64,000 nt of DNA. Origin: a virus (lineage: Duplodnaviria; Caudoviricetes). The notes under the pieces are model-generated. The model worked only from the letters and a program-made list of their open reading frames with translations, had not been told where the DNA came from and did no database searches. The stretch is from positions 96,001-160,000 of the IMG/VR virus record IMGVR_UViG_3300026549_000037. The stretch is one strand, 5' to 3'. The position numbers were made by a program, and so were the translations under genes. Below, piece after piece: positions 286 to 2,114 of the stretch (positions are counted from its first letter, which is position 1; each line of letters opens with the position of its first letter).

Positions 286-358
286 TCGACACTCACAGCA
301 ACTTTTTATATTAAATACATATGATTTGGGTTCATAAACGTACATAATATAGTGTCGA
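286..358 (+). ncRNA. CGAC-stem/CAGCAA RNA copy 1, carrying a Pro(UGG)-like anticodon hairpin
   Basis: TCGACACT-CACAGCAA...AGTGTCGA; internal TATGA-TTTGGGT-TCATA at 320-336. Confidence 0.7.
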
Positions 359-386
359 GAGAATTTAATGCAGAAAAGGACTTGTC

Positions 387-689
387 ATGTCAAATAGAAA
401 TTGTGTTAACTGCGGTGCTCCATTTAATATTGAATTAAATAAATGTCCGTATTGCGGCACAAGCTATTTTGATATGTCTTGTCTTGACCTTGATTCTGGA
501 AAGCCTTTTGCTCTAAAGATAAAAACTAAAATAAATGGAAAGAATTGTTTTATCACTCAAATGGTTCGACCATTAATCAATCTATCTATTGAATTTTCAC
601 AAGATTATTCTGTTAAAACAAACCTTAGTTTAGAAGCAATTACGTTGCCCAACCAGAAAGAGATTCTTAGAATTGAGGTTGAAGATTAA
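387..689 (+). CDS. Zn-ribbon hypothetical protein
   Basis: CxxCGAP...CxYCG, SD AAGGA. Confidence 0.75.
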   Translation: MSNRNCVNCGAPFNIELNKCPYCGTSYFDMSCLDLDSGKPFALKIKTKINGKNCFITQMVRPLINLSIEFSQDYSVKTNLSLEAITLPNQKEILRIEVED

Positions 690-918
690 ATGATTTTCAA
701 TACATATGAAGCTAATAAATTGGAGGATTGAGAATGAATGAAAAGACTCTGGAAGAGCATCTAATTTCTTATTCTCAAATGTCCTCTTGGGAAAAAGTAA
801 ACTTAACACAAGACATTTTGGGCATAGAATTGCTTTTCTATCAAAAGTGTATGTTAGCAATGATGTATGAGGCAAATAAGATTTTCCCAAATAAAATAAA
901 ATTTTTATTCTAAACTTC

Positions 919-947
919 TTGACAAACTTAGGAATCTGTGCTATACT
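919..947 (+). promoter_or_regulatory. sigma-A-type promoter
   Basis: TTGACA-N17-TATACT with extended TG. Confidence 0.8.
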
Positions 948-1015
948 TAATATATAAATTAAGAAGTCACAAAAAAAGATTTCTTAAAAAGTTTTCAAAA
1001 AAGTTTAAAAACCCC

Positions 1016-1044
1016 TTGACAAATACAAAATATTGTGATATACT
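1016..1044 (+). promoter_or_regulatory. sigma-A-type promoter upstream of the 1054-1344 RNA
   Basis: TTGACA-N17-TATACT with extended TG. Confidence 0.85.
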
Positions 1045-1053
1045 TAAGTTACA

Positions 1054-1344
1054 CTAAAAACAAGATGGCTAACGGCAGTTGACTCAATAAAGCAGATTTT
1101 ATAGTCTGTGTATAATGATAAGACGGGTCGGGACTGGCATAGACAGGTCAGTAGGTATTACGGCGGTAGGTAAGAAATCCGCAATCCGAAATGAGTCGGG
1201 AAAACCGAATGATACGGATTAGACACTGCCCTTGATAAAAGGGTTGTCGGGAGAGACTTCAAGTAAAGGGTAACAACCTTTAGATGCTCCCACTGTAATA
1301 AGTCACCATGAAACTGGGTCATAGATACCACATCTTGTTTTTAG
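1054..1344 (+). ncRNA. candidate ~290-nt structured RNA
   Basis: Own promoter; perfect 14-bp terminal stem CTAAAAACAAGATG/CATCTTGTTTTTAG; GC-rich hairpins; no ORF in the track. Confidence 0.65.
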
Positions 1345-1392
1345 ATGCTTTAAGGTTTTTGAAAAATTTTTAAAAAATATTTTAAAAACCCC

Positions 1393-1421
1393 TTGACAAA
1401 CAAAGCAAAGTGTGCTATACT
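1393..1421 (+). promoter_or_regulatory. sigma-A-type promoter
   Basis: TTGACA-N17-TATACT with extended TG. Confidence 0.85.
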
Positions 1422-1439
1422 AAGTACACAATCAAGGAA

Positions 1440-1965
1440 GACGAATGGTTGGTGAGTCTCAAAACAACCCAACTACCATAGTCTTGGTGATAGACTAACA
1501 AAACATCACCCATTCAATAATTTACATTCAATTGGCAGATAGCGAATGTAACTTATATTAAACTGCCCGATTCAGCAAGGATGGATAAAGCCTTGTCGGT
1601 GTTCTATATATTTGAACTCTTCTTTAGTCCGTTAAGCTAAAGCCCCAACTCCCGTCCGAAGTCTTGGAGTAGAGCGCAAGCAATTGGCGTTCGAAGCAGA
1701 AAATGAAAAGGGAAGAACACGATATATAGTTGGTGAAACTTATCAGGGTGCTAATGTGATAAGAATCCCGAGTGGTGGAAAATCGTGCGTGGATATTCCA
1801 CGAGGTAAGCGTAGCGAACTTACCTAAACAACTTCTTAGTTACTATAGGTAATTAAGCATAACTCATGCTACGGTTAGACTGTATGAGAATCCTACTCTT
1901 CAAGAGGATTAAGGTGACTAACCCTCCGAACAGTCGGTGAAGAGGAAGTTCAATCCGACTACCAG
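1440..1965 (+). ncRNA. candidate large structured RNA(s)
   Basis: ORF-free, hairpin-rich stretch downstream of a promoter inside the tRNA cluster. Confidence 0.45.
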
Positions 1966-1992
1966 ATTCTTTTGTAAATGTTTAATGTCCAT

Positions 1993-2114
1993 TCGACACT
2001 CACAGCAATTTTACTTAATGTTCTTGAAAAACATCATGTAGGGTTCGACTCCCTATTAGAATAGCCCTTGAGCAAGGAATGTCTAAGTCTGGCTGGCCTG
2101 AATACAAGTGTCGA
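1993..2114 (+). ncRNA. CGAC-stem/CAGCAA RNA copy 2, carrying a Ser(UGA)-like anticodon arm and a T-arm
   Basis: TCGACACT-CACAGCAA...AGTGTCGA; ATGTT-CT-TGA-AA-AACAT (2018-2034); TAGGG-TTCGACT-CCCTA (2039-2055). Confidence 0.75.

What the first reader, a model, noticed from the sequence alone, without database searches (positions are those of the whole stretch)
320..2055. Isolated anticodon stem-loops as cargo: possible decoys for anticodon nucleases
Seen: copy 1 holds TATGA-TT-TGG-GT-TCATA (5-bp stem, 7-nt Pro-type loop). Copy 2 holds ATGTT-CT-TGA-AA-AACAT (Ser-type) followed by a T-arm. Copy 5 has a CT-GTC-AA (Asp-type) loop in a weaker stem. Established: defence nucleases such as PrrC, RloC and the PARIS effector AriB cut tRNA anticodon arms. 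Inference: these act as sacrificial substrates or sponges.
Basis: partly seen in the sequence, partly recalled or inferred. Interest (0 to 1): 0.7.

Follow-up and report, generated by a model that had tools for sequence, protein, structure and literature searches.

The report
Anticodon-arm mimics on phage Y-like RNAs
A large gut phage makes small RNAs that hold out a copy of a tRNA's codon-reading hairpin on a shared "handle" that travels with a Ro60-shaped phage protein; the mimicry is real and recurs far above chance in related phages, but the idea that these RNAs are decoys for bacterial tRNA-cutting defence enzymes remains untested.

Summary
Partly confirmed. Copies 1 and 2 hold exactly the hairpins described: 320-336, a 5-bp stem with loop UUUGGGU, and 2018-2034, loop CUUGAAA, followed by a T arm at 2039-2055. 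Both form in the minimum-energy fold. Copy 2 is not an isolated hairpin. It is a whole tRNA body circularly permuted at position 26/27. Copy 5 (5899-5915) does not fold as an anticodon arm in this window, but four sister phages carry a perfect version.

The window alone is not significant (2 hairpins against 0.44 expected, P=0.067).
- Set 1: YU-NNN-RN loops 34 against 6.7 expected; CU-NNN-AA loops 19 against 0.5.
- Set 2, independent: 30 against 6.3, and 16 against 0.4.

Seventy per cent of these loops are identical to loops of real phage tRNAs, against 16.5% of control hairpins.

The shared handle (a 7-bp stem, 3 nt, then CAGCAA) accompanies a protein whose model matches only Ro60 structures. 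This makes the RNAs an uncatalogued kind of Y-like RNA.

The decoy role for anticodon nucleases is plausible but unsupported by any direct evidence. The anticodon spectrum is broad.

This scan has already noted the same system on other DNA many times. I found no paper or Rfam family that describes it.

The parts
286..359 (+). Copy 1 RNA module. Handle 5' strand 286-292, spacer 293-295, CAGCAA 296-301, handle 3' strand 352-358, then G359.
   Evidence: Pattern search finds 6 matches against 0.11 expected. The 7-bp stem is perfect. The fold is a rod with the hairpin at its tip.
320..336 (+). Anticodon-arm mimic of copy 1: 5-bp stem TATGA/TCATA and 7-nt loop UUUGGGU (U32 U33 UGG G37 U38, Pro type).
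   Evidence: The loop is identical to that of 2 real phage tRNA-Pro genes in related loci. Sister phages have UGG (G001), UAG (G003) or an 8-nt loop (contig 163716).
1993..2115 (+). Copy 2 RNA module: the handle encloses a tRNA body circularly permuted at 26/27 (anticodon arm, variable region, T arm, capped acceptor stem, D-like arm).
   Evidence: The T-arm and acceptor-like stems covary in the G002 ortholog.
2018..2034 (+). Anticodon arm of copy 2: ATGTT/AACAT stem and loop CUUGAAA (UGA, Ser type).
   Evidence: The loop is identical to that of 15 phage tRNA-Ser genes. It is conserved in 4 sister phages and reads AUGGAAA (GGA, also Ser) in the more distant G004.
2039..2055 (+). T arm of copy 2: TAGGG/CCCTA stem and loop UUCGACU.
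5872..5933 (+). Copy 5 RNA module. The anticodon-arm remnant at 5899-5915 (loop CUGUCAA, GUC) has a broken stem.
   Evidence: It is not formed in the minimum-energy fold. Orthologs have a perfect CTTAA/TTAAG stem with CUGUUAA (3 phages) or CUGCUAA (1 phage).
3664..3794 (+). Copy 3 module: a YrlA-like permuted tRNA body (T arm, capped acceptor, D arm) whose anticodon stem opens towards the handle.
   Evidence: Rfam YrlA scores 34.9 bits, below the gathering score of 69. Fold.
5417..5479 (+). Copy 4 module. It has no anticodon-type loop here, but sister phages have TATAA/UUUUGGU/TTATA at the same position.
6038..6168 (+). Copy 6 module: AT-rich cargo with no anticodon-type hairpin.
14690..14731 (+). 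Copy 7: a handle with 18-nt unstructured cargo in the 5' leader of the DUF2828 gene, downstream of TTGACA/TATAAT hexamers that I read as its promoter.
   Evidence: A handle copy ends 22-250 nt upstream of the gene in 35 of 88 related loci.
14733..16442 (+). Ro60-shaped protein gene (DUF2828 plus DUF7788/vWA-like domains), the presumed partner of the handle.
   Evidence: Pfam DUF7788 7e-39 and DUF2828 8e-28. PHROG 850 'RNA-binding protein'. The top 13 PDB fold matches of the AlphaFold model are all Ro60/Rsr structures.

Best explanation
Copies 1 and 2, and the ancestral form of copy 5, are true mimics of tRNA anticodon arms. They are carried as cargo on a family of small phage RNAs that share one handle: a 7-bp terminal stem, 3 nt, then single-stranded CAGCAA.

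I infer that the handle is the docking site for the phage's Ro60-shaped DUF2828 protein, as the conserved stem of a Y RNA is for Ro60. I also infer that the cargo is the working end. It holds out a tRNA part, either a whole permuted tRNA body or a bare anticodon arm, to proteins that recognise that part.

For the anticodon-arm cargos, the likely clients are proteins that read or cut anticodon loops. Host tRNA-targeting defence nucleases are the leading single candidate. The RNP would then bind, titrate or hand over such a protein.

Shown here:
- the hairpins exist;
- they are enriched and tRNA-exact in two independent sets of homologs;
- the handle clusters on the coding strand around DUF2828 genes;
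- the protein has a Ro60 fold.

Inferred, not shown: binding of the handle to the protein, the identity of the client proteins, and any decoy effect.
For: - Handle. It has 6 exact-pattern copies in the window against 0.11 expected, and the stems covary (AC/GT, TC/GA, CC/GG, GC/GC). In loci oriented on DUF2828 genes there are 222 modules on the gene strand against 14 on the other, and 172 against 2 in a second set. 35 of 88 loci have a copy just upstream of the gene.
- Enrichment, set 1 (160 non-redundant cargos). Hairpins with a 5-bp stem and a 7-nt YU-NNN-RN loop, T loops removed: 34 against 6.7 +/- 2.5. CU-NNN-AA: 19 against 0.48. No shuffle of 500 reaches either. The pattern read backwards gives 5 against 6.8.
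- Enrichment, set 2 (86 new cargos from 31 loci): 30 against 6.25, and 16 against 0.44.
- Genomic control. CU-NNN-AA hairpins occur at 1.49 per kb in modules, 0.086 per kb in the rest of the loci and 5.5 per kb in tRNA genes.
- tRNA rules. 26 of 37 cargo loops are identical to a loop of a real phage tRNA, against 16.5% of background hairpins that fit the same pattern (p=6e-13). G37 goes with G36, as in tRNA-Pro and tRNA-Leu (Fisher p=0.0017).
- Stems are AT-rich (24% GC against 57% in the tRNA genes), so these are not fresh copies of tRNA genes.
- Protein. The model's fold matches only Ro60 structures over its full length.
- Expression, weak. Bovine-gut RNA libraries from three studies hold the island. 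Contigs over 1590-3490, which include copy 2, are 5-20 times deeper than their neighbours.
Against: - In this window alone the count is not significant (P=0.067), and copy 5 is degenerate.
- Only about 21% of cargos carry a strict anticodon-type hairpin. Most cargo is something else.
- The loop is not stably kept. Among five sister phages the copy 1, 4 and 5 loops switch triplet, change length or lose the stem. This fits weak constraint as well as it fits an arms race.
- There is no sequence-level link of the protein to Ro60. The model is of moderate quality (pLDDT 72, TM about 0.4).
- No binding, cleavage or phenotype data exist.
- RNA evidence comes from assembled contigs only, and DNA carry-over cannot be excluded.
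Confidence: 0.55

Rival explanations
1. Specific decoy or sponge. The displayed anticodon arms are cleaved or tightly bound by host anticodon nucleases (PrrC, RloC, AriB, colicin-E5-like, PtuAB-like), which protects the tRNA pool during infection.
For: - The loops are tRNA-exact.
- The most frequent triplets include Lys UUU, Asn GUU and Tyr GUA. Lys UUU and Asn GUU are AriB targets (PMC12409363); Tyr GUA as a nuclease target is from my own knowledge.
- The loops turn over fast between sister phages, as expected in an arms race.
- The RNAs sit in tRNA islands (654 tRNA genes in 123 loci), where phage counter-measures to tRNA attack are encoded.
Against: - The spectrum covers about 30 triplets, and none is significantly over-represented after multiple testing.
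- The window's own loops are Pro and Ser types, which are not classic nuclease targets.
- AriB recognises and cuts the stem at 40/41 next to a UAAU motif. The AT-rich mimic stems do not copy host stems.
- The known phage answer is resistant replacement tRNAs.
- There is no relation to neighbouring tRNA genes.
- The host and its defence systems are unknown.
Confidence: 0.3
2. Adaptor for tRNA repair or processing. As a Y RNA tethers Ro60 to PNPase, the tRNA-like cargo recruits tRNA-handling enzymes (modification enzymes, RNase P/Z, CCA-adding enzyme, RNA ligases), or directs the ring to damaged tRNAs, forming an RNA-repair or quality-control platform.
For: - Bacterial Ro60/Y RNA genes lie in RNA-repair operons, and YrlA is a substrate of tRNA enzymes (PMC4201824).
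- TROVE proteins of jumbo phages have been proposed as repair platforms with a tRNA-like partner (PMC7824862).
- Many cargos are whole permuted tRNA bodies (35 of 160 have a T arm).
- The G36-G37 rule matches a known modification determinant (m1G37; from my own knowledge).
Against: - No RNA ligase, kinase or phosphatase was found among the 25 window ORFs scanned against Pfam and/or PHROGs.
- A bare 17-nt hairpin lacks the elbow that most tRNA enzymes use.
Confidence: 0.2
3. Evolutionary leftovers. The modules arise from tRNA genes in tRNA islands, and the anticodon arms are decaying remnants with no function of their own.
For: - The modules sit among tRNA genes.
- Forms range from whole tRNA bodies through arm plus T arm to the arm alone.
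- Copy 5 in this window is decayed, and loops are lost in some sisters.
Against: - Stems have drifted to 24% GC while the 7-nt loops stay tRNA-exact. This needs selection on the loop.
- The same design recurs with unrelated stems in 26 loci of set 1 and in further loci of set 2.
- Enrichment is as strong in short cargos that keep nothing else of a tRNA (17 against 2.6).
Confidence: 0.1
4. Generic U-turn (YUNR) loops for fast RNA-RNA kissing, as in antisense RNAs, with no tRNA mimicry intended.
For: YU-NNN-RN is also the U-turn consensus of antisense recognition loops (from my own knowledge). The loops vary in their central triplet.
Against: - The loop length is strictly 7 nt, with a peak in the size distribution.
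- C32 and A38 are favoured.
- The G36-G37 coupling holds.
- 70% of loops are identical to real tRNA loops.
- In 9 of 11 cargos that have both, the arm lies before the T arm, most of them at tRNA-like spacing.
Confidence: 0.05

Closest known systems
Bacterial and phage Y RNAs of the YrlA type with Ro60/Rsr (Rfam RF02553; Chen et al. 2014, PMC4201824)
   Same: - A small RNA closed by a stem that joins its 5' and 3' ends.
- It is encoded near a Ro60-fold protein gene.
- It carries a tRNA-derived module (T arm, D arm, capped acceptor).
- Copy 3 gives a weak YrlA hit (34.9 bits).
   Different: - The handle (7-bp stem, 3 nt, CAGCAA) is not the Y RNA Ro-binding helix.
- The protein is DUF2828/DUF7788 and is not recognised as TROVE by sequence.
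- There are many paralogous RNAs per genome (8 here), scattered through the tRNA island.
- YrlA has no anticodon loop, and D. radiodurans Yrn1 has only a 6-nt loop. Copies 1 and 2 display a canonical 7-nt anticodon loop.
Class I RNAs of dictyostelid amoebae (Rfam RF01414; PMC7919456)
   Same: They are 42-65 nt RNAs with a short stem joining the ends, a conserved single-stranded 11-nt motif directly 3' of the 5' stem strand, and a variable remainder. The Rfam consensus of that motif reads CCUUACAGCAA. Copy 5 reads CCCUUACAGCAA.
   Different: - They are eukaryotic, with their own promoter element.
- The RF01414 model does not hit any module here.
- No anticodon-type cargo is described for them.
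- No Ro60-like partner is known from the literature. The partner reported in PMC7919456 is the RRM protein Rnp1A.
Phage tRNAs that neutralise tRNA-targeting defences (T5 tRNA-Lys/Thr/Asn against PARIS AriB; PMC11464382, PMC12409363)
   Same: Both are phage-encoded and tRNA-derived, lie in tRNA gene clusters, and relate to the anticodon arm.
   Different: The T5 molecules are full, decoding, cleavage-resistant tRNAs that replace the cut host tRNAs. The RNAs here cannot decode, because the acceptor end is absent or capped. If they act against defence at all, they would have to work by binding or titration.

Membership tests
tRNA anticodon-arm mimic | 5-bp stem closing a 7-nt loop | tested here: met
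   Copy 1 (320-336) and copy 2 (2018-2034) meet it and form in the minimum-energy fold. Copy 5 (5899-5915) does not: it has 3 pairs plus 2 mismatches.
tRNA anticodon-arm mimic | Y32, U33 and R37 in the loop, and enrichment of this pattern among homologs | tested here: met
   Copy 1 has UU-UGG-GU and copy 2 has CU-UGA-AA. Homologs give 34 against 6.7 and 30 against 6.25 expected, with no shuffle of 500 reaching the count in either set.
tRNA anticodon-arm mimic | The loop obeys tRNA-specific rules beyond the search pattern | tested here: met
   26 of 37 loops are identical to real phage tRNA loops against 16.5% of background, p=6e-13. G36 is coupled to G37, p=0.0017. The loops of copies 1 and 2 equal tRNA-Pro and tRNA-Ser loops.
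tRNA anticodon-arm mimic | Conservation of the arm in orthologs | tested here: inconclusive
   Copy 2 is kept in 4 sisters. Copy 1 is kept in 2, has a changed triplet in 1 and an 8-nt loop in 1. Copy 5 is perfect in 4 sisters and broken here.
Decoy or sponge for anticodon nucleases | Bound or cleaved by an anticodon nuclease, and competes with tRNA | not testable with these tools
   This needs biochemistry. None is available.
Decoy or sponge for anticodon nucleases | Displayed anticodons concentrate on nuclease target tRNAs | tested here: inconclusive
   58 distinct mimics cover 31 triplets. Lys UUU and Asn GUU are the commonest at 8.6% each. Nothing is significant after multiple testing against 909 phage tRNA genes.
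Decoy or sponge for anticodon nucleases | The host carries a matching tRNA-targeting defence | not tested
   The host is unknown. The phage is found in bovine and sheep gut metagenomes.
Y RNA (YrlA, RF02553) | Reaches the Rfam gathering score | tested here: not met
   Only copy 3 matches, at 34.9 bits against 69. Copies 1, 2 and 5 have no hit at E<=10.
Y RNA (YrlA, RF02553) | Encoded with a Ro60 (TROVE plus vWA) protein | tested here: inconclusive
   A protein with a Ro60 fold is encoded 8-14 kb downstream, with a handle copy in its leader. Pfam assigns it to DUF2828/DUF7788, not TROVE, and a profile search of PDB sequences finds no Ro60.
Y RNA (YrlA, RF02553) | Bound by the Ro60-like protein | not testable with these tools
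   Only genomic linkage is available: strand bias of 222:14 and 172:2, and a leader copy in 35 of 88 loci.
Dictyostelid Class I RNA (RF01414) | Terminal stem plus an adjacent conserved 11-nt motif containing CAGCAA | tested here: met
   The architecture is the same. The Rfam consensus is CCUUACAGCAA, against CUCACAGCAA (the commonest form) and CCCUUACAGCAA (copy 5) in the window's copies. The family is described in PMC7919456.
Dictyostelid Class I RNA (RF01414) | Reaches the Rfam gathering score | tested here: not met
   There is no RF01414 hit on any module. The single weak hit at 880-938 (21 bits, E=1.4) lies outside the modules and lacks CAGCAA.

The most novel reading that the evidence does not exclude
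Phages use a Ro60-like ring protein loaded with a panel of interchangeable bait RNAs. Each bait displays a bare tRNA anticodon arm or a whole tRNA body. The particle captures or neutralises host enzymes that attack tRNA anticodons. This would be an RNA-based anti-defence strategy distinct from supplying replacement tRNAs. It would also give the first function to the very large DUF2828 family and possibly to the related handle of amoebal Class I RNAs.
Probability: 0.3. Interest if true: 0.85.

Novelty: new variant of a known kind. Interest (0 to 1): 0.66.

Why it matters
If the reading is right, it has several consequences:
- Ro60/Y-RNA-type particles would have a large, unstudied branch in phages whose RNAs are modular. 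One conserved docking handle carries swappable tRNA parts.
- The abundant DUF2828 family would gain a concrete, testable partner. More than 3,600 homologs were found in one capped search, and more than 500 viral contigs matched in each of two capped scans.
- The gene-poor stretches of phage tRNA islands would be explained.
- It would offer a defined set of short RNAs (55-130 nt) for testing against the growing list of tRNA-targeting bacterial defence systems.

Even without the decoy role, isolated anticodon arms kept tRNA-exact on AT-rich stems are an unusual case of molecular mimicry.

Tried and rejected
- Reverse-complement strand as a control. I dropped it, because the complement of CU-NNN-AA is UU-NNN-AG, which also fits the pattern.
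- Raw counts were inflated by T loops, since UUCGAAU fits YU-NNN-RN. 59 hairpins fell to 34 after removing them.
- "No stop anticodons among the mimics" held in set 1 but not in set 2, where TTA, CTA and TCA occur. I dropped this argument.
- Relation between a mimic's anticodon and the tRNA genes in the same locus: 10 of 34 shared against 9.8 expected, so there is no signal.
- Focus on known nuclease targets: none is significant.
- Concentration of sister-phage differences in the anticodon triplet: there are too few variable sites for a test.
- A profile search of PDB sequences found no Ro60. Only the fold comparison shows it.
- Rfam has no family for the modules. The Class I RNA and YrlA models do not reach threshold.
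- Megablast against the deposited phage collection found only a 40-nt tRNA match.
- Fourteen loci found through the zinc-ribbon ORF (L006-L019, 239 kb) hold no module. Four of the five parent contigs tested do encode DUF2828 elsewhere, so this is not a clean negative control.
- No RNA-repair genes were found among the 25 window ORFs scanned against Pfam and/or PHROGs.
- RNA-library contigs cannot give RNA ends or levels. I use the depth contrast only as a weak hint.
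Full report
**What is in the window**

The first 6.5 kb is a phage tRNA island. It holds tRNA-Asn, Leu, Met, Arg, Gln and Ile, several aberrant tRNA-like genes, and a near-threshold RAGATH-33 match. The window is G000:C1:96001-160000 of a 169.6-kb virus record. Near-identical DNA occurs in bovine and sheep gut metagenomes.

Scattered through the island is a repeated element. The pattern TCGACNNYWACAGCAA has 6 matches against 0.11 expected. Each match is followed 38-107 nt later by the exact complement of its first seven bases plus a G. The two variable stem positions covary (AC/GT, TC/GA, CC/GG, GC/GC).

A seventh copy lies in the leader of the gene at 14733-16442. An eighth lies 0.9 kb upstream of the window. 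The element is therefore an RNA "handle": a 7-bp terminal stem, 3 nt, then unpaired CAGCAA. It encloses variable "cargo".

**Checking the observation**

- Copy 1 (286-359). It folds into a rod whose tip is TATGA / UUUGGGU / TCATA at 320-336.
- Copy 2 (1993-2115). It contains ATGTT / CUUGAAA / AACAT at 2018-2034 and a T arm at 2039-2055. Both are in the minimum-energy fold. After the T arm come a capped acceptor-like stem and a D-like arm, so copy 2 is a complete tRNA body circularly permuted between positions 26 and 27. It is not an isolated hairpin. The T-arm and acceptor-like stems covary in the divergent ortholog of phage G002.
- Copy 5 (5872-5933). It has CTTAA / CUGUCAA / CCAAG at 5899-5915 with only three pairs, and the fold does not use them.

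Taken alone, the genome's eight cargos hold 2 anticodon-type hairpins against 0.44 expected (P=0.067). That is suggestive but not significant.

**Sister phages**

Four related contigs carry orthologs of every copy. Their DUF2828 proteins are 88-94% identical to the window's.

| Copy | This window (G000) | Sister phages |
|---|---|---|
| 2 | CUUGAAA | Unchanged in four phages. AUGGAAA (GGA, still a serine triplet) in the more distant G004 |
| 5 | CUGUCAA, broken stem | Perfect 5-bp arm with CUGUUAA (Asn type) in three phages and CUGCUAA (Ser type) in one |
| 1 | UGG | UGG in one, UAG in one, an 8-nt loop in one |
| 4 | No such arm | TATAA / UUUUGGU / TTATA in two sisters |

The window's copy 5 is thus the decayed version. 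Handle and stems are almost invariant across the sisters, while the apical loops turn over. There are too few sites to separate diversifying selection from lack of constraint.

I collected phage loci around homologs of the DUF2828 protein. I called modules strictly: a perfect 7-bp stem with at most one G-U pair, a 3-nt spacer, CAGCAA, and a trailing G.

Modules are almost confined to the gene's strand, 222 against 14. This sets the false-call rate near 6%.

Set 1 has 160 non-redundant cargos. After removing T loops, which also fit the pattern, the counts for hairpins with a 5-bp stem and a 7-nt loop are:

| Loop pattern | Observed | Dinucleotide shuffles | Shuffles reaching it |
|---|---|---|---|
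| YU-NNN-RN | 34 | 6.7 +/- 2.5 | 0 of 500 |
| CU-NNN-AA | 19 | 0.48 | 0 of 500 |
| Same pattern read backwards | 5 | 6.8 | not enriched |

The excess is as strong in short cargos that contain nothing else (17 against 2.6).

Set 2 is a second scan with a different query alignment. It gave 86 further cargos from 31 loci, none similar to the first set. The result repeats: 30 against 6.25, and 16 against 0.44.

Against the rest of the same loci, CU-NNN-AA hairpins occur at 1.49 per kb in modules and 0.086 per kb elsewhere. tRNA genes have 5.5 per kb.

**Are they tRNA loops or just U-turn loops?**

- Of 37 distinct cargo hairpins, 26 have a 7-nt loop identical to the anticodon loop of a real tRNA gene in these phage loci. 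Only 16.5% of background hairpins that already fit YU-NNN-RN do so (p=6e-13).
- G at position 37 goes with G at 36, as in tRNA-Pro and tRNA-Leu (5 of 8 against 2 of 31, p=0.0017). Copy 1 follows this rule.
- In 9 of 11 cargos that have both an arm and a T arm, the arm comes first, most of them at tRNA spacing.
- The stems are 24% GC against 57% for the phages' tRNA anticodon stems. These are not recent copies of tRNA genes. The loop is kept while the stem has drifted.

This argues for selected mimicry and against both chance and simple decay. Only 33 of 160 cargos (21%) carry such an arm. 24 more carry a T arm without one, like copy 3 and YrlA. 103 carry neither.

**The handle's partner**

The gene at 14733-16442 encodes a 569-aa protein with Pfam DUF2828 and DUF7788 domains. 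It belongs to PHROG 850, annotated "RNA-binding protein".

A profile search of PDB sequences finds no relative. The AlphaFold model has pLDDT 72. Its 13 best PDB fold matches are all Ro60: Xenopus and human Ro60, Thermus phage phiLo Ro60 and D. radiodurans Rsr. They align over the full length at E about 3e-6.

A handle copy sits in the gene's leader here, and in 35 of 88 related loci. That placement would suit autoregulation by the protein.

The closest known system is therefore Ro60 with Y RNAs, especially the tRNA-like YrlA (PMC4201824). Membership fails on defined tests:
- Rfam YrlA reaches only 34.9 of 69 bits, and only on copy 3.
- The handle is not the Y RNA helix.
- The protein is not TROVE by sequence.

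The handle's architecture and its CAGCAA motif match the Class I RNAs of dictyostelids (Rfam consensus CCUUACAGCAA; PMC7919456). That model does not score the modules either.

**Function**

No test was possible for the claim that the mimics are decoys for anticodon nucleases.

Points in its favour:
- the loops are tRNA-exact;
- they turn over quickly between sister phages;
- they sit in tRNA islands;
- Lys UUU, Asn GUU and Tyr GUA are among the commonest triplets.

Points against, or neutral:
- 58 mimics cover 31 triplets with nothing significant after multiple testing;
- there is no relation to neighbouring tRNA genes;
- the window's own loops are Pro and Ser types;
- AriB cuts the stem at 40/41 next to a UAAU motif, and phage T5 escapes with resistant replacement tRNAs (PMC12409363);
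- no RNA-repair genes were seen among the window ORFs scanned.

My best reading is the more general one. These are bait RNAs of a Ro60-like particle that present tRNA parts to proteins recognising them. Host tRNA-targeting nucleases are the leading single candidate, at about 0.3.

**Expression**

Metatranscriptome assemblies from three bovine-gut studies contain the island. Contigs over 1590-3490, which include copy 2, are 5-20 times deeper than flanking contigs of the same phage. That argues for RNA and against DNA carry-over. Contigs cannot give RNA ends or levels, so this is only a hint.

**Novelty**

I found no paper on DUF2828 function, no paper on anticodon-arm decoys in phages and no Rfam family. 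Earlier notes of this same scan describe the same handle, protein and anticodon-arm cargo on many other genomes. I used them as leads only and re-tested the claims here.

I class the finding as a new variant of a known kind (Ro60/Y-RNA-type particles).

Noticed in passing
window 1054-1344: A ~290-nt RNA that appears to have its own promoter (TTGACA...TATACT upstream) and is closed by a perfect 14-bp stem. Positions 1068-1216 match Rfam RAGATH-33 at 119.4 bits, 1 bit under the gathering score, with a 39-nt insertion.
   Followed up: partly
window 232-269, 1441-1478, 1927-1964, 2508-2545: A second repeated hairpin motif, GAATGGYYGGTGA-loop-CCRACTACCA. Two copies lie 17-28 nt upstream of the handles of copies 1 and 2. 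The other two precede long ORF-free stretches. No Rfam match.
   Followed up: no
window 14690-14731: A handle copy with short unstructured cargo lies between the likely promoter and the start codon of the DUF2828 gene. The same placement occurs in 35 of 88 related loci. This suggests the protein regulates its own mRNA through the handle.
   Followed up: partly
window 1586-2007: In RNA run X3, a very deep contig (depth 4684) ends at 2007 with sequencing adapter, right after CAGCA of copy 2's handle. This may be an abundant RNA end inside the single-stranded handle motif, or an artefact.
   Followed up: no
window 5417-5479 and orthologs: The apical loop of copy 4 differs in length and sequence among five sister phages (UGCAGGUU, UUUUGGU, or a 9-nt loop), while the rest of the module is nearly invariant.
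   Followed up: partly
G000:C1:95084-95211 (0.9 kb upstream of the window): An eighth CAGCAA module carries a YrlA-like permuted tRNA body. tRNA-Gly, Glu and Lys genes lie just upstream of it.
   Followed up: partly
window 3964-4476: A 170-aa ORF inside the tRNA island begins with EIERKWLL, which recalls the ExExK signature of CYTH/triphosphate-tunnel enzymes (from my own memory). Pfam gives nothing, and PHROG 6660 has no known function.
   Followed up: no
related loci L085, L107, L132, L143, L196, L210 and others: Some phages carry mimics with stop-codon-reading triplets (UUA, CUA, UCA). Many of these loci also hold suppressor tRNA genes (38 CTA tRNA genes among 909). This fits stop-codon recoding in these phage groups.
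   Followed up: no
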